Shown piece after piece: positions 1 through 8,002 of a DNA stretch of 8,002 bases (its first letter is position 1; the number at the start of each line of letters is the position of its first letter). Under the pieces are notes generated by a model. That model worked only from the letters and a program-made list of their open reading frames with translations. It was not told the DNA's origin and searched no databases. Origin of the DNA: a virus. Taxonomy: Duplodnaviria; Heunggongvirae; Uroviricota; Caudoviricetes. A program made the position numbers and the translations under genes. The stretch is taken from IMG/VR virus record IMGVR_UViG_2690316285_000016; one strand, written 5' to 3'.

Positions 1-84
1 GCCAAACTGCGATCGATTCAGATGCCATTTTGCAATCAGCGCCAGAACAGCAGCTGACAGGCCGTATTTGATTTTTGCGCTCAT
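1..84 (-). CDS. Putative phage endolysin, N-terminal 28 codons only (gene continues past left edge of window)
   Basis: Hand translation of minus strand from ATG at 84..82 gives MSAKIKYGLSAAVLALIAKWHLNRSQFG; in-frame TAA at 93..91 fixes the start. The hydrophobic GLSAAVLALIA stretch resembles a signal-anchor of SAR-type endolysins, which pair with S21-type pinholins. Sits directly after holin + DUF1327 as in Qin-type lysis cassettes. No convincing SD; residues after the hydrophobic stretch look atypical from memory. Confidence 0.45.
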   Translation of the reverse strand, partial: MSAKIKYGLSAAVLALIAKWHLNRSQFG

Positions 85-139
85 GGATATTTATCAGGAT
101 GCTACCAATGAAAGATACTGGAAAGCCAACTGCAAAAAG

Positions 140-454
140 CTAACAACCCGTAATCGAGTTATCAGAACTGTTAATTTTTATGGTATACCGCGCCTCTGAA
201 CAGGGGCGCGTTTCTGGCAACAGCTCGTCCCCTTCACATAACCCGGCAGCAACATCCAAGAAGACCTGTCTGATGCTCCTTCTGGCTGCTGCCTCATAAA
301 ACTCCAGCGCGGCACCTTCAACACGGTCCAGCGAGATGTCCAGGTCAAAAATTTCACCGTCAAAGCGTTTTTTGTCCCGTAACGCTAAAGTTACCGTAAC
401 TTTATTCTCAAAATTGCGGATCCCTTTCACAATCAGTTCATAGTTTTGAGTCAT
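140..454 (-). CDS. DUF1327-family small prophage protein (YdfR-like), 104 aa
   Basis: ORF-track protein MTQNYELIVKGIRNFENKVTVTLALRDKKRFDGEIFDLD... matches my recollection of the YdfR/DUF1327 family that sits between holin and lysozyme in E. coli lambdoid prophages. SD GGGGAGAG lies 7 nt upstream of the ATG (454..452) and overlaps the last holin codons; 4-nt gap to holin stop. Confidence 0.6.
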   Translation of the reverse strand: MTQNYELIVKGIRNFENKVTVTLALRDKKRFDGEIFDLDISLDRVEGAALEFYEAAARRSIRQVFLDVAAGLCEGDELLPETRPCSEARYTIKINSSDNSITGC

Positions 455-458
455 TGAA

Positions 459-674
459 TTACTCTCCCCGTGCAGCCTTACGACGGTCCTCTCTGATTTT
501 GAAATACAGGTTAGTCAGATATGTCAGCAGCCCAAACAGCAGACTCCCCAGCACGCCTATTGCCGCCCACTGAGACGGGGAAACCCTGTCCAGCAACTGC
601 AGGAACCAGTAGCCCGTTCCCACCGCTGACGTGGTGTATGACACACCTGTTGTGATTTTTTCCATCTGGTACAT
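459..674 (-). CDS. S: Class II pinholin, phage 21 / 933W S-like, 71 aa from Met at 674 (alternative start Met at 665); dual-start MYQMEK motif
   Basis: Translation [71 protein letters not shown] is a close match to S21-type holins (two TM helices, charged C-terminus). SD GGGAGAcGGGG immediately upstream of ATG 674. The 97-aa ORF-track version (to 752) would have to be translated through the terminator hairpin at 708-740, so the extension is probably not real. Confidence 0.8.
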
Positions 675-707
675 ACCCCGTCTCCCGTTATCCGGAAGCT
701 GACAACA

Positions 708-740
708 ATAAAAAAAGCCACCAGTTAAGTACTGATGGCT
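708..740 (-). terminator. Rho-independent terminator on minus strand between nanS-p stop and holin start
   Basis: Minus-strand RNA AGCCAUCAGU-ACUUA-ACUGGUGGCU: 10-bp stem (one G-U pair), 5-nt loop, followed by UUUUUUU (forward A-run 710-716). Paired by hand, not folded computationally. Confidence 0.55.
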
Positions 741-824
741 CTGATAACTCATGCAGGCATCTCAGACGACCCACTGACACTACCGGTGAGTTTAACGATA
801 CCTTCCATTTGGCTGGCTCACTTT

Positions 825-2678
825 TTATGATGATGCCGGTGCATTTATCTCCAGCACCAGACTTTCTATCTCAACGCCATACGCTGCATTTTTGGTAATA
901 TCCGTCAGCGTCAGCGCATTCAGCCCCAGTGTCAGACTGTCTTTTATGACCTGGAATGCCGGGCCAGCCACTCCATTCAGTTTCGGAGTAACCGTGGCAC
1001 TGCCGGCGGTGAACACCAGCTCCAGCGTCAGCCAGTCGTTACTGTAATTCCCGAACTCGCCCAACTTTGTGTTTCCTGCTTTCTTGTGATGCATCAGATT
1101 CAGTTTGCCGTCTGTGGTCTGGGTGAAGAACGACATCAGGAACGGGTTACCAGTCCCGGTCATCGCCACGACGTCAGGTAACGCTACATCGGTATACAGA
1201 TAAATTCCCAGACCGAACTGGTTGTTGGTCAGTGCGCCTGACAGTCGAAACTTACAGCTCAGTCTGCCACCCCGTGTCAGCAGGGAGACTGCGTCATCCA
1301 CCGGGCGCGTCAGGGACCAGGCTTTATTGCTCTGCTTGGTGATCTTAAATACACCATCTGACAACTGAACTCCGCCATTCTTAATGCTCCAGCCCTGCGC
1401 AGCAGCGTCTCCGGCTGTCGGCAACAGGGAGATTGTGCGTATGGATGCATCTTCAGACGGCCCCGATGGCGTGTCGCCGCCGGGCGAGGGTTTGATTTCC
1501 GGTGCCTTACCACTAATGAAGGCTAAGGTGCGACCGGCTACGTTCAGAATAGCAGTTGCCATACGATCGGGAATAATGCCACGACGCGCCCATGAGCTGA
1601 AATGCGTCGGGCGATTTGATGATACCCAGTTTTTGTTCGTTCGGGATGCCGAACCGTAATAACCAGACCCGGCAATATCAGGATCTTCTGACGGGTTGTT
1701 TGTCGGTGTATTAACTCCGCTACCATCGGTCATAAAGGGAACAAAATAAATCTGCTGGGATTCTTTACCTTTATATGCACCATATACCACTTCATATTGC
1801 GTACCGTGTTCTTGTTTCCACGCGTATGTCGTGTCGCCACAAATCCAGGGGACTGATGCCGGACTTCCACCGTGACACTGCGCCGCCAGCCCGGCAAGGT
1901 CAGCACGGAACTGCTGTACCATTGCAAGAAATGCTGCTGGCTGCTGGGCGTAACTGGCATTCGTCATATCGAATTCCCCCTGCATCCAGCATATCGCCAG
2001 CAAAACGTTTTTCGGGTTTTTCTGCAATGCTGCCTTCGTGCGGAAAAGCAGATCCTGATATAACGGCTTACCCACTCCCCAGCGAGCCGAATCCTGACTG
2101 GCCCCCGTGGACTCGCTGAATGTCCCCTCCGTGCCCTGGGTGAATGCCGAACCACCACAACAGCATGGTACCAGCAGGATCCCCGCATTATTAGGGATAT
2201 ACGGAAGCAGTTTTTTGGCAATATGTAAGCCCTGTCCGACACAGCCGTACTGCCCTTTGCTCAGGTCAGCCCGGGGATGGTTAATCGTACTCATATCCTG
2301 AACATCATGCAGACAATGGTCAGCAGGAATGATGTCGTTAAATACGCATACTTCACCACCGGGAGTCACTGTGTTACGACGGGCCAGTTGCTTAATGCGC
2401 GGATGGGGCGCATCGTATGAATCCGGAAGCGGAAGACCTTCACCGTAAGCCATGGCATTGGATTGCCCGGCCAGTACGATGACGTAGTACCACTCCGGCT
2501 CAGTTGCACCACTGACGACCACATCACCTTCTGCTGCAATCGCCTGCATCAGGGTATAAGGGGTTATGGCCACCGGACTACCAAACGGCTGCCAGCCCTC
2601 CTTCAGTTTTTGTGTCAGTCGTTTCGCAAGGTCTGACGGCGATGCCGCCCTGACCACGTCATAGTGTTTAAATGCCAT
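825..2678 (-). CDS. nanS-p: Prophage-encoded sialate (9-O-acetyl-Neu5Ac) O-acetylesterase, NanS-p-like; SGNH/SASA hydrolase core, 617 aa
   Basis: 617-aa ORF with SD GGGAGGA 5 nt before ATG 2678..2676. SGNH block I motif VIVLAGQSNAMAYGE (GQSN encoded at 2468..2457, candidate catalytic Ser73). N-terminus MAFKHYDVVRAASPSDLAKRL... is typical of the DUF1737 N-domain of NanS-p proteins in EHEC prophages. Position between the tRNA/stx slot and the holin matches Stx-phage synteny. Confidence 0.85.
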   Translation of the reverse strand: MAFKHYDVVRAASPSDLAKRLTQKLKEGWQPFGSPVAITPYTLMQAIAAEGDVVVSGATEPEWYYVIVLAGQSNAMAYGEGLPLPDSYDAPHPRIKQLARRNTVTPGGEVCVFNDIIPADHCLHDVQDMSTINHPRADLSKGQYGCVGQGLHIAKKLLPYIPNNAGILLVPCCCGGSAFTQGTEGTFSESTGASQDSARWGVGKPLYQDLLFRTKAALQKNPKNVLLAICWMQGEFDMTNASYAQQPAAFLAMVQQFRADLAGLAAQCHGGSPASVPWICGDTTYAWKQEHGTQYEVVYGAYKGKESQQIYFVPFMTDGSGVNTPTNNPSEDPDIAGSGYYGSASRTNKNWVSSNRPTHFSSWARRGIIPDRMATAILNVAGRTLAFISGKAPEIKPSPGGDTPSGPSEDASIRTISLLPTAGDAAAQGWSIKNGGVQLSDGVFKITKQSNKAWSLTRPVDDAVSLLTRGGRLSCKFRLSGALTNNQFGLGIYLYTDVALPDVVAMTGTGNPFLMSFFTQTTDGKLNLMHHKKAGNTKLGEFGNYSNDWLTLELVFTAGSATVTPKLNGVAGPAFQVIKDSLTLGLNALTLTDITKNAAYGVEIESLVLEINAPASS

Positions 2679-2871
2679 GAATCCTCCCGGCCGGGATAAT
2701 ATTGTGAGTAAAATAAGGAGCGGGCTGAAGTCCGGAAGTTACAGGACAATGGCAGAAGAGAGACGACAGCCCGCAATTCGAAAAAGACCGCGCAGTTGCG
2801 CAGAGTGATTACTATGGGGTATTATTCGCCAGCTGAAATATTACTTCACGTTTTATTGTTTATTCCTTGCC

Positions 2872-2900
2872 GCCCGCGTCTCCCAGCGCGGGCTTTTTTT
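2872..2900 (+). terminator. Plus-strand intrinsic terminator-like hairpin + T7 (duplicate at 4291-4319)
   Basis: GCCCGCG-tctcccag-CGCGGGC perfect 7-bp GC stem followed by TTTTTTT on the plus strand; identical copy in repeat 2. Confidence 0.5.
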
Positions 2901-2906
2901 GCCCAC

Positions 2907-2929
2907 AAGAAAACCCCTCCGGAGAGGGG
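2907..2929 (-). terminator. Minus-strand intrinsic terminator-like hairpin + U-tract (duplicate at 4326-4348)
   Basis: Minus RNA CCCCUC-UCCG-GAGGGG (6-bp GC stem, tetraloop) followed by UUUUCUU; lies 6 nt from the plus-strand terminator, forming a convergent pair. Confidence 0.5.
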
Positions 2930-3177
2930 CTAAAGCCGCGTATCTGTATCATCATGCACATGGTGCCGGGTGCCTCCCGGTGAGTTCAGCCCGGTGCCAC
3001 TAAACCCGCGTCATTCTCGTTTTGATAATCAGAGATTATACCGTCACCAGTCGCCCCTCCGCTCAGGGGGATTCACCATGCGAAATTTTTTTAACAAATG
3101 CCCAGTCTGACAGGCAACTGTCAACTTACTGAATTGTGAGCAACATAGCATTTAACGGGGAACCTGTTTTCTGCAGT

Positions 3178-3204
3178 AAAAAGGCCCACCGGAGCGGATG
3201 GGCC
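3178..3204 (-). terminator. Minus-strand hairpin + U5 (duplicate at 4597-4623)
   Basis: Minus RNA GGCCCA-(10-nt loop)-UGGGCC followed by UUUUUAC; forward A-run 3178-3182. Confidence 0.4.
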
Positions 3205-3395
3205 TGGAAGGATAGCGGTCATGTGATGCCGGTTTCCCGGTAACTCAGCACCGGTATCTGAGTCAACGTTTTCTCTACTGGGTCATTTCCGATACGCCCT
3301 GCCTGCTGACAGGCTTTCATCACATCTGAAAATATAGCACCCTGACTGATACTGTAGTACCTAAGGTTCCAGAAACTGTGATGTATCCGGCACAG

Positions 3396-3416
3396 AAAAG
3401 CCCCTCCGGAGAGGGC
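3396..3416 (-). terminator. Minus-strand hairpin + U4 (duplicate at 4815-4835); diverged homolog of the 2907-2929 element
   Basis: Minus RNA CCCUC-UCCG-GAGGG followed by GCUUUUCUG; weaker (5-bp stem). Confidence 0.35.
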
Positions 3417-3809
3417 TGGAGAGTGGCGCTATGTGCCATTGCATGATGCCGGGTGCCTCCCGGTGAATTCAGTACCAGCACCTGAATCCGCGATTATCCC
3501 ATATACCTACTCGCTGATTGCCCCTCCGCACAGGGGGATTCACCATGCCAGTTTCTTTTAACAAACTCCCCGCAAACCAGACAACAGTCAACCGCCTGAA
3601 TTGTGAAGTATTTAAAAATTTCTCCCGCTAACTGATACCCGGCTAACAGTCTGGCGTTTTCTTTTTCAGCAACGGGAAAGCAACAACCACCACACCCGCC
3701 ACCAGCACACCGTCAGCCAGCACTGACATTATCCGGCTGCTGCAATGCCATTCACAAAAACAGTAAGCAATCACTTTTTACCGTAACAGGTGATAATCCA
3801 GATATGTAT

Positions 3810-4136
3810 CTACCCCAGATGAGTAATCCGAAGTTCATCCATACCACAGGTCCTGGCTATTCTGTTGTACTCCTGAACAAGAGCAAATAATTCTGAATTA
3901 GCAACCATGAACTCATCGCAAACCCTCTGTATAGCATCACTATTCAGAATAATAACGTCTCTTCCCGAAAGACGATCAGGAGTACAGAACAAAACTGTCA
4001 AACGGCTGAAGGCCTTTGCTCGTGCTGCATTGACTATATCAATACGCTGCCTAAGGATGAAACACCCCGACGCCTCATCAATATTCACTCTACCCACACC
4101 ATATGAATGATAAATATTTAATGCTGAAAAAACCAT
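3810..4136 (-). CDS. Hypothetical protein; unrecognised cargo ORF in AT-rich insert (108 aa from first ATG at 4136; ORF-track 117 aa assumes TTG start at 4163)
   Basis: Only ORF over 100 codons in the 2.3 kb between tRNAs and nanS-p, and on the same strand as the late operon. No strong SD before either start; no motif I recognise. Local sequence is AT-rich (hand count 25 G+C in 90 nt over 4141-4230). Could be non-coding or a gene remnant. Confidence 0.35.
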   Translation of the reverse strand: MVFSALNIYHSYGVGRVNIDEASGCFILRQRIDIVNAARAKAFSRLTVLFCTPDRLSGRDVIILNSDAIQRVCDEFMVANSELFALVQEYNRIARTCGMDELRITHLG

Positions 4137-4230
4137 TAGACCGTATAACAAACACTCAATCAATACTTAACAGAACTTTTATTTTTGACAAACATAAAAT
4201 ATTTTCAACAATATCCTGAGCCAGGTATAT

Positions 4231-5036
4231 NTATGGGGTATTATTCGCCAGCTGAAATATTACTTCACGTTTTATTGTTTATTCCTTGCCGCCCGCGTCT
4301 CCCAGCGCGGGCTTTTTTTGCCCACAAGAAAACCCCTCCGGAGAGGGGCTAAAGCCGCGTATCTGTATCATCATGCACATGGTGCCGGGTGCCTCCCGGT
4401 GAGTTCAGCCCGGTGCCACTAAACCCGCGTCATTCTCGTTTTGATAATCAGAGATTATACCGTCACCAGTCGCCCCTCCGCTCAGGGGGATTCACCATGC
4501 GAAATTTTTTTAACAAATGCCCAGTCTGACAGGCAACTGTCAACTTACTGAATTGTGAGCAACATAGCATTTAACGGGGAACCTGTTTTCTGCAGTAAAA
4601 AGGCCCACCGGAGCGGATGGGCCTGGAAGGATAGCGGTCATGTGATGCCGGTTTCCCGGTAACTCAGCACCGGTATCTGAGTCAACGTTTTCTCTACTGG
4701 GTCATTTCCGATACGCCCTGCCTGCTGACAGGCTTTCATCACATCTGAAAATATAGCACCCTGACTGATACTGTAGTACCTAAGGTTCCAGAAACTGTGA
4801 TGTATCCGGCACAGAAAAGCCCCTCCGGAGAGGGCTGGAGAGTGGCGCTATGTGCCATTGCATGATGCCGGGTGCCTCCCGGTGAATTCAGTACCAGCAC
4901 CTGAATCCGCGATTATCCCATATACCTACTCGCTGATTGCCCCTCCGCACAGGGGGATTCACCATGCCAGTTTCTTTTAACAAACTCCCCGCAAAACAGA
5001 CAACTGTCAACCGTCTGAATTGTGAGACATTTAAAA
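4231..5036. repeat. Direct repeat copy 2 (~806 bp), abutting the tRNA-cluster terminator
   Basis: Same comparison as copy 1. Position 4231 is a single ambiguous n exactly at the copy boundary (copy 1 has c at 2812). Confidence 0.85.
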
Positions 5037-5058
5037 AAAAGGCCCGCAAAAGCGAGCC
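5033..5058 (-). terminator. Intrinsic terminator immediately downstream of the tRNA cluster (minus strand)
   Basis: Minus RNA GGCUCGC-UUUU-GCGGGCC (7-bp stem with one G-U) followed by UUUUUUUU (forward A8 at 5033-5040); starts 15 nt after the tRNA-Arg(UCU) 3' end. Confidence 0.5.
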
Positions 5059-5072
5059 AGGGAAAATAAGTG

Positions 5073-5149
5073 TGGCGCGTTGTACTGGATTCGAACCAGT
5101 GACCGATTGCTTAGAAGGCAATTGCTCTGTCCGGCTGAGCTAACAACGC
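5073..5149 (-). tRNA. tRNA-Arg (anticodon UCU), 77 nt with encoded CCA
   Basis: Minus-strand GCGTTGTTAGCTCAGCCGGACAGAGCAATTGCCTTCTAAGCAATCGGTCACTGGTTCGAATCCAGTACAACGCGCCA; cloverleaf built by hand: 7-bp acceptor stem, D stem GCTC/GAGC, anticodon loop CUUCUAA, T loop TTCGAAT. Third tRNA of an ileZ-argN-argO-like trio as found downstream of Q in Stx phages. Confidence 0.85.
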
Positions 5150-5162
5150 ATGATGCAGATAA

Positions 5163-5239
5163 TGGACCGCCATCGGGGACTTGAACCCCGCGCAGCCAGC
5201 TTCGAAGGCTGGCGCTCTTTCCTGATGAGCTAATGGCGG
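5163..5239 (-). tRNA. tRNA-Arg (anticodon UCG), 77 nt with encoded CCA
   Basis: Minus-strand CCGCCATTAGCTCATCAGGAAAGAGCGCCAGCCTTCGAAGCTGGCTGCGCGGGGTTCAAGTCCCCGATGGCGGTCCA; acceptor CCGCCAT/ATGGCGG, anticodon stem CCAGC/GCTGG with loop CUUCGAA, T stem CGGGG/CCCCG with TTCAAGT loop. Starts with C1-G72, which is unusual but pairs correctly. Confidence 0.8.
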
Positions 5240-5246
5240 TATGTGA

Positions 5247-5322
5247 TGGTGGCCCTTGCTGGATTTGAACCAGCGACCTGGCGATTATGAGTCGCTCGCT
5301 CTCACCACTGAGCTAAAGGGCC
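5247..5322 (-). tRNA. tRNA with CAU anticodon, most similar to tRNA-Ile2 (lysidine, ileX/ileZ-like); tRNA-Met cannot be excluded; 76 nt
   Basis: Minus-strand GGCCCTTTAGCTCAGTGGTGAGAGCGAGCGACTCATAATCGCCAGGTCGCTGGTTCAAATCCAGCAAGGGCCACCA; closely resembles E. coli ileX as I recall it; canonical cloverleaf with T loop TTCAAAT. Confidence 0.85.
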
Positions 5323-5362
5323 GGGAGCCGCATAATAACGACGCGTAATTAATTCTTCAATA

Positions 5363-6421
5363 TCATCCGTTCTGGCTGACTAAATCCTGTACTTCCCGAA
5401 CCGTCTGCTCAAAACGTTCAGTCTCCAGCTCAACGCCAATTGCACGACGCCCGAGCGCCAGTGCCGCTTTCACTGTCGAACCCAACCCCATGAAAAAATC
5501 TGCAATCAGGTCACCCGGACGACTGCTAGCGCTGATTATCTGCTGCAGCATTTCTGCCGGTTTTTCGCACGGATGTTTCCCGGGATAGAACTGCACCGGT
5601 TTATGCGTCCACACATCGGTATACGGCACCTGCACCGTCACGCCAAAATACCGCCGCAGATGTTTATATTCACTCAGCAGCTCCGCATACTGCCGGTTCA
5701 GTGAGGTATACGTATCCACCAGCTGGTGGTGGAGCTTTTCCAGTTCACCACGCCGATGCTTCTCTTCTGCCACCCGGGCAAACAGCGCCTGTAATTTCAG
5801 ATAATCGCTTTCATTCGGCAACTGCCACTGACCGGCACTGAACCAGTGCGACACCATGTTTTTCTTTCCTGTGGCATCTGCAATCTGTTTTGCCGTTATC
5901 CCCAGGGCAGCTCGCGCATCACGAAAGTAAGAAATCAGCGGGGCCATCACATGCTGTTTCAGTGCACTGCCCTTCGCCGCATACCCGGCATCTTTCGGAC
6001 GATACGGCCCCTGATAATGTTCCGCGAACAGAATGCGCTCTGTGGCGGGGAAATACGCCCGCAGGCTTTCCTTGTTGCATCCGTTCCAGCGTCCGGACGG
6101 CTTCGCCCAGATAATATGGTTCAGCACACTGAAGCGTTCACGCATCATGATTTCGATATCAGATGCCAGGCGATGACCACAGAACAGGTAAAGACTTCCG
6201 GCAGGTTTCAGCACCCGCCAGAACTGCGCCAGACACTGGTCCAGCCACTTCAGGTAATCATCGTCGCCCTTCCACTGGTTATCCCAGCCCTCAGGCTTCA
6301 CTTTAAAGTACGGCGGGTCCGTGACTATCAGGTCAACAGAATTTTCGGGTAACGACCGGATAAATTCCAGGCAGTCGGCGTTGATTAACTCACAACTGGA
6401 TATTTTTACAGTATTAAGCAT
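5363..6421 (-). CDS. Orphan DNA methyltransferase, beta-class N6-adenine/N4-cytosine (N6_N4_Mtase fold), 352 aa
   Basis: Catalytic motif IV DPPY near the N-terminus (LIVTDPPYF) and SAM-binding motif I near the C-terminus (DFFMGLGST): the permuted order typical of beta-class amino-MTases. No restriction endonuclease partner in the window. ATG 6421..6419 overlaps the upstream gene's TAA (6416..6414): ATGCTTAA. Confidence 0.85.
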   Translation of the reverse strand: MLNTVKISSCELINADCLEFIRSLPENSVDLIVTDPPYFKVKPEGWDNQWKGDDDYLKWLDQCLAQFWRVLKPAGSLYLFCGHRLASDIEIMMRERFSVLNHIIWAKPSGRWNGCNKESLRAYFPATERILFAEHYQGPYRPKDAGYAAKGSALKQHVMAPLISYFRDARAALGITAKQIADATGKKNMVSHWFSAGQWQLPNESDYLKLQALFARVAEEKHRRGELEKLHHQLVDTYTSLNRQYAELLSEYKHLRRYFGVTVQVPYTDVWTHKPVQFYPGKHPCEKPAEMLQQIISASSRPGDLIADFFMGLGSTVKAALALGRRAIGVELETERFEQTVREVQDLVSQNG

Positions 6422-6815
6422 GGATCATTAAGCCTGTCTCTGATAGGCTCATTCTGCTTTTGCGCAAAGCAGTGGGCCTGAGGTTTGCTTGTGAACCCAA
6501 CGCATGAGNNNNNNNNNNNNNNNNNNNNNNNNNNNNNNNNNNNNNNNNNNNNNNNNNNNNNNNNNNNNNNNNNNNNNNNNNNNNNNNNNNNNNNNNNNNN
6601 NNNNNNNNNNNNNNNNNNNNNNNNNNNNNNNNNNNNNNNNNNNNNNNNNNNNNNNNNNNNNNNNNNNNNNNNNNNNNNNNNNNNNNNNNNNNNNNNNNNN
6701 NNNNNNNNNNNNNNNNNNNNNNNNNNNNNNNNNNNNNNNNNNNNNNNNNNNNNNNNNNNNNNNNNNNNNNNNNNNNNNNNCTGGCGGTTTCTGTCATATC
6801 CTGCTGTTTTAGCAT
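6414..6815 (-). CDS. Hypothetical protein upstream of and overlapping the methylase; interior N-masked (only MLKQQDMTETA... and ...HALGSQANLRPTALRKSRMSLSETGLMIHA visible)
   Basis: Candidate start ATG 6815..6813 preceded by AAGGAAAAG SD-like sequence; C-terminal fragment 6508..6417 ends in a TAA that overlaps the methylase start. Both visible ends are in the same frame only if the N-run length (272) is exact, which cannot be verified. Confidence 0.3.
   Translation of the reverse strand: MLKQQDMTETAXXXXXXXXXXXXXXXXXXXXXXXXXXXXXXXXXXXXXXXXXXXXXXXXXXXXXXXXXXXXXXXXXXXXXXXXXXXXXXXXXXXXXXXXXXXXHALGSQANLRPTALRKSRMSLSETGLMIHA
6509..6780. other. Run of 272 N (masked or unresolved sequence)
   Basis: Literal n characters in the sequence. 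Confidence 0.99.
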
Positions 6816-6847
6816 GTCTTTTCCTTTTCCGGTTAACGTGACACACC

Positions 6848-7585
6848 NNNNNNNNNNNNNNNNNNNNNNNNNNNNNNNNNNNNNNNNNNNNNNNNNNNNN
6901 NNNNNNNNNNNNNNNNNNNNNNNNNNNNNNNNNNNNNNNNNNNNNNNNNNNNNNNNNNNNNNNNNNNNNNNNNNNNNNNNNNNNNNNNNNNNNNNNNNNN
7001 NNNNNNNNNNNNNNNNNNNNNNNNNNNNNNNNNNNNNNNNNNNNNNNNNNNNNNNNNNNNNNNNNNNNNNNNNNNNNNNNNNNNNNNNNNNNNNNNNNNN
7101 NNNNNNNNNNNNNNNNNNNNNNNNNNNNNNNNNNNNNNNNNNNNNNNNNNNNNNNNNNNNNNNNNNNNNNNNNNNNNNNNNNNNNNNNNNNNNNNNNNNN
7201 NNNNNNNNNNNNNNNNNNNNNNNNNNNNNNNNNNNNNNNNNNNNNNNNNNNNNNNNNNNNNNNNNNNNNNNNNNNNNNNNNNNNNNNNNNNNNNNNNNNN
7301 NNNNNNNNNNNNNNNNNNNNNNNNNNNNNNNNNNNNNNNNNNNNNNNNNNNNNNNNNNNNNNNNNNNNNNNNNNNNNNNNNNNNNNNNNNNNNNNNNNNN
7401 NNNNNNNNNNNNNNNNNNNNNNNNNNNNNNNNNNNNNNNNNNNNNNNNNNNNNNNNNNNNNNNNNNNNNNNNNNNNNNNNNNNNNNNNNNNNNNNNNNNN
7501 NNNNNNNNNNNNNNNNNNNNNNNNNNNNNNNNNNNNNNNNNNNNNNNNNNNNNNNNNNNNNNNNNNNNNNNNNNNNNNNNNNNNN
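6848..7585. other. Run of 738 N (masked or unresolved sequence); likely hides the Q 3' end and the late promoter/qut region
   Basis: Literal n characters; every ORF-track protein containing X runs is an artefact of these blocks. Confidence 0.99.
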
Positions 7586-8002
7586 ACCTAGTTACCTTTT
7601 TTAACTGCCGCTCAGCCCATGCTTCTTCAATATCAAACCGGGTCACCAGCGCATCATAAAATTTCTTAACTGTTTTTTCCCATGACGCGCGTGTTATCTG
7701 GTTTGTCACCTCGCATATAGCATTAAATGCCTCCGTTGATGGTAGTCTTTCATAGCCACGACCACCACAACGCTGGCAGTCTCTGATAACAGGCATACCA
7801 CGTTTTACCGACTCTTCACGATGAATGGCGACACCACGCCCACGGCAATCCTTACAGGCGGTGGAAACCTCACCCTTTCCGCCACACTCCGGACAGGCAA
7901 CTTTTACCACCTCCCTGACTTTTTTCCATTCTTCCCAGTAAGACGGATACACACCTTTCGTACACTTTGCCCATACCGGCGGCTTACCATCCGGATACTG
8001 GA
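7586..8002 (-). CDS. Partial CDS (5' end beyond window, 3' end runs into N-mask): Q-family late antiterminator-like protein with three DnaJ-type CxxCxGxG zinc-finger motifs
   Basis: Minus-strand frame open to the window edge: ...QYPDGKPPVWAKCTKGVYPSYWEEWKKVREVVKVACPECGGKGEVSTACKDCRGRGVAIHREESVKRGMPVIRDCQRCGGRGYERLPSTEAFNAICEVTNQITRASWEKTVKKFYDALVTRFDIEEAWAERQLKKVTR. The C-terminal pattern (C.RC.G.GY.R.P ... W..TVK..YDALV ... VTR) matches my recollection of QuuD/QuuQ-type Q antiterminators. The ORF-track 'Met' at 7952 is GTG and is not a supported start. Confidence 0.5.

What the first reader, a model, noticed from the sequence alone, without database searches (positions are those of the whole stretch)
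2812..5036. Two ~0.8 kb direct repeats with 765 bp of apparently perfect identity and a sharply diverged tail
2812-3576 and 4231-4995 show no mismatch by eye; identity then drops over the last ~40 bp (first mismatch 3577 vs 4996), which is the signature of a recombination or gene-conversion boundary rather than ancient duplication. Such repeats can loop out or amplify the intervening cargo by homologous recombination. Caution: a single n sits exactly at the copy-2 boundary (4231), so a mis-assembled or collapsed repeat is a real alternative.
Basis: seen in the sequence. Interest (0 to 1): 0.55.

Follow-up and report, generated by a model that had tools for sequence, protein, structure and literature searches.

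The report
Scaffold-join false duplication in prophage
The two identical 0.8 kb "repeats" are almost certainly one stretch of a Shigella sonnei prophage written twice, because a draft-genome scaffolder joined two overlapping contigs with a single n, so this is an assembly artefact and not a mobile or amplifiable cassette.

Summary
Bases 2813-3576 equal 4232-4995 exactly (764 bp). A 42-bp tail with 6 mismatches follows, and beyond it the sequences are unrelated.

The R-cargo-R structure is not believable. Every non-N base of the window occurs exactly in two separate prophage loci.
- Window 1-3576 and 4232-8002 are 100% identical to one single-copy locus of Shigella sonnei 53G and other complete genomes: Q, methylase, three tRNAs, R, nanS.
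- Window 3447-4230 (the tail plus the "cargo") is 100% identical to a second prophage type, in which the cargo runs straight on into a tRNA-Arg gene.

The two types share 130 identical bases (3447-3576), and the printed sequence switches from one to the other there. The only new junction, 4230/4232, is the single n. I found that junction in none of 5,426 complete E. coli genomes and in none of three large contig collections. The natural continuation of the cargo turned up 103 times in one of them.

The two long N runs nearby are scaffold gaps of wrong size (272 against 226 bp, 738 against 194 bp), so this region is a patchwork of small contigs.

What really sits here, once, is a known array of STnc100/PasD-family small-RNA genes upstream of the prophage sialate esterase gene. 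Interest is low.

The parts
2813..3576 (.). Copy 1 of the 764-bp exact duplicate. It is part of the stretch 1-3576, which is identical to the single-copy S. sonnei locus (P1).
4232..4995 (.). Copy 2 of the duplicate. It is the first 764 bp of the stretch 4232-6508, which is identical to the same P1 locus at an offset of -1419.
4231..4231 (.). A single n, read as a scaffold join between two contigs. It is the only junction in the window that has no counterpart in any other assembly.
3447..4230 (.). A 784-bp stretch exactly identical to a second prophage type (P2). It holds the end of one STnc100 unit, tail 1 and the 'cargo'. In P2 it continues directly into tRNA-Arg.
   Evidence: L024, L010; for the continuation.
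3447..3576 (.). A 130-bp stretch identical in P1 and P2. The printed sequence switches from P1 to P2 here.
   Evidence: the exact match to P1 ends at 3576 and the exact match to P2 starts at 3447.
3577..3618 (.). Tail 1, the P2 version of the region upstream of STnc100 unit 1. It has 6 differences from tail 2.
4996..5037 (.). Tail 2, the P1 version of the same upstream region.
3388..3577 (-). STnc100-family sRNA unit 1 in copy 1 (122.5 bits, gathering score 47), with an intrinsic terminator at 3417-3399. Its twin in copy 2 is 4807-4996 (123.6 bits).
3176..3349 (-). Degenerate STnc100-like unit 2 (30.1 bits, below the gathering score), with a terminator at 3205-3182. Its twin is 4595-4768.
2901..3110 (-). 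STnc100-family sRNA unit 3 (161 bits), with a terminator at 2931-2912. Its twin is 4320-4529.
3643..3774 (-). A 43-aa DUF3927 ORF, the only annotated gene in the 'cargo'. It belongs to prophage type P2.
5073..5322 (-). Phage tRNA cluster: Arg(TCT), Arg(TCG) and a CAT-anticodon tRNA that RefSeq annotates as tRNA-Ile.
825..2678 (-). Prophage sialate O-acetylesterase (NanS-p; DUF1737 + SASA + DUF6645). The protein is 100% identical to that of S. sonnei.
5363..6421 (-). N6/N4 DNA methyltransferase of P1.
6509..6780 (.). A scaffold gap of 272 N. The complete genomes have 226 bp here.
   Evidence: L005 7364-7589.
6848..7585 (.). A scaffold gap of 738 N. The complete genomes have 194 bp here.
   Evidence: L005 7103-7296.

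Best explanation
The window comes from a scaffolded short-read draft of Shigella sonnei or a very close relative. This genome carries two lambdoid prophage types that share modules.

P1 reads Q, a small hypothetical gene, DNA methylase, tRNA-Ile/Arg/Arg, tail 2, R (three STnc100-type sRNA units), nanS, holin.

P2 reads (methylase or Q), tRNAs, about 30-45 bp, the AT-rich DUF3927 segment (the 'cargo'), tail 1, one STnc100 unit, iraM.

One contig (1-4230) starts in P1, runs through R, and leaves it on the P2 branch, crossing inside the 130 bp that the two prophages share exactly. A second contig (4232 onward) is P1 again, beginning 764 bp before that branch point. A scaffolder put the two contigs next to each other and wrote one n. 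A likely reason (inferred) is that read pairs from the P2 cargo land in the tRNA/methylase block, which P1 and P2 share at 99.6% identity. That would give a negative gap estimate.

The 764-bp 'repeat' is therefore the same P1 sequence printed twice, and the 'diverged tail' is the P1/P2 difference. The real locus has one R.

Shown: the exact identities, the absence of the junction elsewhere, and the wrong gap sizes. Inferred: the read-pair mechanism and the kind of assembler.
For: (1) Exact string matches: window 1-3576, 4232-6508, 6781-6847 and 7586-8002 all occur in S. sonnei 53G (HE616528.1; L006, L028) and in L007 as one colinear locus. The methylase-to-nanS distance there is 1265 bp, which is the window's distance minus 1419.

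(2) The only mismatches of window 1-3618 against that locus are the six tail positions.

(3) Window 3447-4230 occurs exactly in L024 and L010, a different prophage context.

(4) In L001, L002, L003 and L024, the four cargo-bearing loci whose sequence I read past this point, the cargo continues past ...CCAGGTATAT with TTCAGTATAAGGCTC... into tRNA-Arg. That continuation is found in 103 IMG/VR contigs.

(5) The junction 4230/n/4232 is found in one piece in 0 of 5,426 complete E. coli genomes, although 1,182 of them hold the cargo. It is also found 0 times in genome contigs, metagenome contigs and viral contigs, even when 0-30 spacer bases are allowed.

(6) The N runs of 272 and 738 correspond to 226 and 194 real bases, with a 67-bp contig between them. 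The region is therefore a scaffold of small contigs with poor gap estimates.

(7) Another draft scaffold carrying the same nanS protein (L010) shows the same pattern: single Ns at 3882 and 7885, each directly followed by another copy of the methylase block.

(8) No natural homology boundary exists at 2812/2813 in any fetched locus. This fits an arbitrary contig end, not the edge of a genetic element.
Against: There are no reads, so the mis-join is inferred and not seen. I cannot explain why the contigs end exactly at 4230 and 4232, because neither position is a homology boundary in the loci I fetched. The source assembly itself was not identified. That L024 is S. sonnei is inferred from its IS-rich context and from neighbouring accession numbers of S. 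sonnei-type loci (L029, L032), not shown. A contig with nanS-R-tail1-cargo is a natural arrangement in some E. coli (strain 2D, L001, 99.2% identical), so contig 1 alone need not be chimeric.
Confidence: 0.9

Rival explanations
1. The source strain really carries R-cargo-R. A P2 fragment (tail 1 plus cargo) was inserted into P1 together with a duplication of R, and the n is merely an uncalled base. The repeats could then loop out or amplify the cargo by homologous recombination, and the STnc100 gene dose would be doubled.
For: The two copies are perfectly identical, as expected for a very recent event. Prophage modules of this kind do recombine: mosaic forms such as L001 and L003 exist.
Against: It needs one homologous and one illegitimate join, and the only undetermined base of the region falls exactly on the illegitimate one. 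The junction is absent from every other assembly searched. All complete S. sonnei-type loci fetched have a single R. The surrounding sequence is a scaffold with wrong gap sizes.
Confidence: 0.05
2. Unequal crossing-over between P1 and P2 at their shared 130 bp produced a large chromosomal duplication in the source strain. The genome then truly holds both the recombinant junction (R-tail1-cargo) and the parental junction (R-tail2-tRNAs), far apart. The scaffolder wrongly placed them side by side.
For: Both junctions are present in the assembly. The switch point lies in an exactly shared stretch. Contig 1 as such is a natural arrangement in E. coli 2D.
Against: A plain wrong turn of the assembler at a 130-bp repeat explains the same data without any rearrangement. 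The local R-cargo-R adjacency would still be false. No complete genome that I fetched shows such a duplication.
Confidence: 0.05

Closest known systems
False duplication flanking a scaffold gap (a known class of draft-assembly artefact)
   Same: A gap character sits exactly at the edge of one copy. The copies are identical. The new junction is unsupported elsewhere. Each side matches a different true locus exactly. Neighbouring gaps are of wrong size.
   Different: The duplicate is not simply the two edges of one gap. One contig also takes a wrong branch into a paralogous prophage, so a 654-bp foreign piece (3577-4230) lies between the copies.
Rfam STnc100 (RF02076) / PasD family of prophage small RNAs upstream of the sialate esterase gene
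   Same: Two units per copy score 122-161 bits against a gathering score of 47, on the late-operon strand. Each ends in an intrinsic terminator and lies directly upstream of nanS-p. This is the arrangement described for pasD/STnc100 in bioRxiv 10.64898/2026.05.13.724894.
   Different: Three units in tandem, the middle one degenerate (30 bits). Expression and targets were not tested here.
The stx locus of Stx-converting lambdoid phages (Q, tRNAs ileZ-argN-argO, stx, nanS-p, lysis genes)
   Same: Same gene order and homologous flanks. In phage records the stx2A/B genes lie between the tRNA cluster and the esterase (H72/H73).
   Different: No toxin genes here. The interval holds only the sRNA array.

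Membership tests
Scaffold-join false duplication (assembly artefact) | A gap or ambiguity character lies exactly at the boundary of one copy | tested here: met
   The n at 4231 is directly followed by copy 2.
Scaffold-join false duplication (assembly artefact) | Complete genomes of the same organism hold the sequence once, and both flanks fit that single copy exactly | tested here: met
   Window 1-3576 and 4232-8002 are exact in HE616528.1 at an offset of 1419.
Scaffold-join false duplication (assembly artefact) | The junction created by the duplication is not seen in independent assemblies | tested here: met
   0 of 5,426 complete E. coli genomes and 0 in three contig collections. The positive control gave 103 hits.
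Scaffold-join false duplication (assembly artefact) | Read depth and read pairs contradict two copies | not testable with these tools
   No reads of the source assembly are available.
Direct-repeat-flanked cassette (real R-cargo-R able to loop out or amplify) | Determined, contiguous sequence across both cargo-repeat junctions | tested here: not met
   The cargo-to-R junction is an n. In L001, L002, L003 and L024 the cargo continues into tRNA-Arg instead, and that continuation occurs in 103 IMG/VR contigs.
Direct-repeat-flanked cassette (real R-cargo-R able to loop out or amplify) | Both the occupied form and the single-repeat form are found in related genomes | tested here: not met
   Only the single-repeat forms were found (L004-L009, L011-L014, L025-L034). 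The occupied form was found nowhere.
Gene-conversion or recombination tract boundary | The drop in identity marks the end of a homogenised tract between two old paralogues in one element | tested here: not met
   The 6 tail differences are exactly the differences between two separate prophage types. Left of the tail the two 'copies' are the same locus, not homogenised paralogues.
Rfam STnc100 (RF02076) | Covariance-model score at or above the gathering score of 47 bits | tested here: met
   161 and 122.5-123.6 bits for units 3 and 1. Unit 2 scores only 30.1 bits, so it does not meet the score.
Rfam STnc100 (RF02076) | Transcribed as a discrete small RNA | not testable with these tools
   Only terminator-like hairpins at the 3' ends were seen.

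The most novel reading that the evidence does not exclude
The source strain truly carries nanS-R-cargo-R-tRNAs. It would have arisen by recombination between two resident prophages, giving a doubled STnc100 sRNA array and a small DUF3927 segment that can be excised or amplified through the 764-bp repeats.
Probability: 0.05. Interest if true: 0.3.

Novelty: not a real feature. Interest (0 to 1): 0.05.

Why it matters
It matters mainly as a warning. Single-n joins and N runs in draft genomes of prophage-rich bacteria such as Shigella can place paralogous prophage segments in series, and the result looks like a perfect recent duplication with a cargo. Taken at face value, it would inflate counts of sRNA genes (six STnc100-type hits where three exist) and suggest a mobile cassette that is not there. 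The real content of the locus, a tandem STnc100/PasD-type sRNA array between the phage tRNA cluster and nanS-p at the position where Stx phages carry stx, is already described.

Tried and rejected
- I looked for a natural homology boundary at 2812/2813 that would explain why copy 2 starts there. No fetched locus has one: all P1-type loci run through it, and P2-type loci share only 2914-2989 weakly.
- I looked for a boundary at 4230. L001, L002, L003 and L024 run on into tRNA-Arg, and that continuation occurs in 103 IMG/VR contigs. The exact contig ends remain unexplained.
- I tested the 117-aa ORF in the cargo (3810-4163, minus strand). It has no Pfam match and RefSeq does not annotate it, so I treat it as a chance ORF.
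- The weak OmrA-B match at 2812-2900 (+) scores 25 bits against a gathering score of 40. Its fold is not better than shuffles (z = -1.8). I did not accept it as a family member.
- I tried to identify the source record and the organism of L024 and L010 through the literature and through junction scans. Nothing was found.
- A simple tandem duplication is rejected, because the sequence left of the junction (3577-4230) does not belong to P1 at all.

Full report
**Observation.** With an offset of 1419 bases, window 2813-3576 and 4232-4995 are identical (764 bp). Position 2812 is C and 4231 is n. Six mismatches follow in 3577-3618 vs 4996-5037, after which the two sequences are unrelated (one search finds the same pair).

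**Context.** On the minus strand, which is the direction of lambdoid late transcription, the window reads as follows:
- the 3' part of an antiterminator Q gene (7586-8002);
- two N runs (6848-7585 and 6509-6780);
- a DNA methylase (6421-5363);
- three tRNAs (5322-5073);
- copy 2;
- the n;
- a 612-bp AT-rich segment (3619-4230) whose only family match is a 43-aa DUF3927 ORF;
- copy 1;
- the prophage sialate esterase NanS-p (2678-825);
- a holin and a DUF1327 protein.

In Stx phages the toxin genes lie between this tRNA cluster and the esterase.

**What the repeated unit contains.** Each copy holds three tandem, mutually homologous units on the minus strand. Two of them match Rfam STnc100 (RF02076) at 161 and about 123 bits against a gathering score of 47. 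The middle one is degenerate at 30 bits. Each unit ends in a terminator-like hairpin, and the region has 21 such sites against 2.5 expected. A recent preprint places STnc100 and the related PasD directly upstream of the prophage sialic acid esterase gene (bioRxiv 10.64898/2026.05.13.724894). This content is therefore a known kind. The 42-bp tail is the region just upstream of unit 1.

**Comparison with complete genomes.** The NanS protein of the window is identical to one found in many assemblies, including HE616528.1. Papers cite that record as the Shigella sonnei 53G reference.

In that genome and in others (L006, L007, L028), window 1-3576 occurs as an exact string. So do 4232-6508, 6781-6847 and 7586-8002, all in one colinear locus in which the second block lies 1419 bases closer than in the window. 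The only mismatches of window 1-3618 against that locus are the six tail positions. The complete genomes therefore have a single R, and both halves of the window fit that single R perfectly. E. coli O121 strain 201805972 (L004) shows the same single-copy form at 98-99% identity.

**The sequence between the copies.** Window 3447-4230 occurs as an exact 784-bp string in L024 (CP049175.1) and in L010 (FTVJ01000050.1). There it belongs to a different prophage arrangement: tRNAs, this segment, one STnc100 unit, then iraM. The two prophage types are identical over 3447-3576 (130 bp), and this is where the printed sequence changes from one to the other. In L001, L002, L003 and L024, the cargo-bearing loci I read past this point...CCAGGTATAT (ending at 4230) is followed by TTCAGTATAAGGCTC... 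and a tRNA-Arg gene about 45 bp further on. The window instead has the n and then the start of copy 2.

**The junction.**
- A query across 4230/4232 finds no one-piece match in 5,426 complete E. coli genomes, although 1,182 of them hold most of the cargo. Matches either stop at 4230, start at 4232, or consist of two pieces in the opposite order.
- The exact junction, with any base at the n or with 0-30 spacer bases, is absent from the genome, metagenome and viral contig collections.
- The natural continuation is present in 103 viral contigs.

**The N runs.** The 272 and 738 Ns stand where complete genomes have 226 and 194 bases, and a 67-bp piece lies between them. They are scaffold gaps with estimated sizes, not masks. 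The window is a chain of small contigs in a region that the assembler could not resolve.

Another draft scaffold carrying the same nanS protein, L010, shows single Ns at 3882 and 7885, each immediately followed by another copy of the methylase block. Its first 2,074 bases also show that a P2 form with methylase, three tRNAs, 30 bp and then the cargo exists, at 99.6% identity to the P1 methylase/tRNA block. From this I infer why a scaffolder would link the end of the cargo to the second contig and estimate a negative gap.

**Conclusion.** The 764-bp repeat is one prophage sequence printed twice. The "cargo" belongs to a second prophage. The "tail" is the difference between the two prophages. 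The n is a scaffold join. I put this at about 0.9.

The alternatives each get about 0.05. One is a true R-cargo-R in the source strain. The other is a true large duplication that produced both junctions at distant sites. Under the second, the printed adjacency would still be false.

**What remains unexplained.** I cannot say why the contigs end exactly at 4230 and 4232. Neither position is a homology boundary in any locus I fetched.

**Novelty and interest.** The finding as stated is not a real feature. The underlying single-copy sRNA array is already known.

Noticed in passing
window 6509-6780 and 6848-7585: The N runs (272 and 738) do not match the true lengths in complete genomes (226 and 194 bp), and a 67-bp contig lies between them. 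They are scaffold gaps, not masking.
   Followed up: yes
window 3209-3213; L025-L027, L029, L030, L032, L033 at about 6795-8056: Many complete S. sonnei-type genomes carry an IS3-family insertion sequence of about 1.26 kb inside R, at window 3209-3213 (5 bases duplicated). It interrupts the degenerate middle STnc100-like unit. The window's strain and 53G lack it.
   Followed up: partly
L010 (FTVJ01000050.1) 3882 and 7885: This draft scaffold has single Ns, each followed by another copy of the methylase-tRNA block. Three paralogous prophage segments are chained in series, the same pattern as in the window.
   Followed up: partly
window 2812-2900 (+); twin at 4231-4319: A small element on the opposite strand ends in a strong terminator hairpin (GCCCGCG...CGCGGGC followed by a run of T). 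It gives a weak OmrA-B match below threshold (25 bits against 40), and its fold is not better than shuffles (z = -1.8). It may be a convergent terminator or an undescribed small transcript.
   Followed up: partly
window 5247-5322 (-): ARAGORN calls this tRNA Met (anticodon CAT). RefSeq annotates the homologue as tRNA-Ile, and one phage record names it ileZ.
   Followed up: no
window 2650-5100: Terminator-like hairpins are strongly enriched (21 against 2.5 expected). One follows each sRNA unit, one follows tRNA-Arg (5058-5041), and one lies just upstream of nanS (2803-2788). Late transcripts would have to read through all of them, presumably by Q antitermination.
   Followed up: no
window 3810-4163 (-): A 117-aa ORF in the AT-rich cargo has no Pfam match and is not annotated in RefSeq genomes. 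It is probably not a gene.
   Followed up: partly
L001 (E. coli 2D), L003 (OZ040035.1), L004 (O121): Natural mosaics of the same modules exist in complete genomes: nanS-R-cargo-tRNAs-Q, nanS-like gene with one sRNA unit, cargo, three tRNAs and methylase, and nanS-R-three tRNAs-methylase. This interval is a recombination hot spot among lambdoid prophages.
   Followed up: partly
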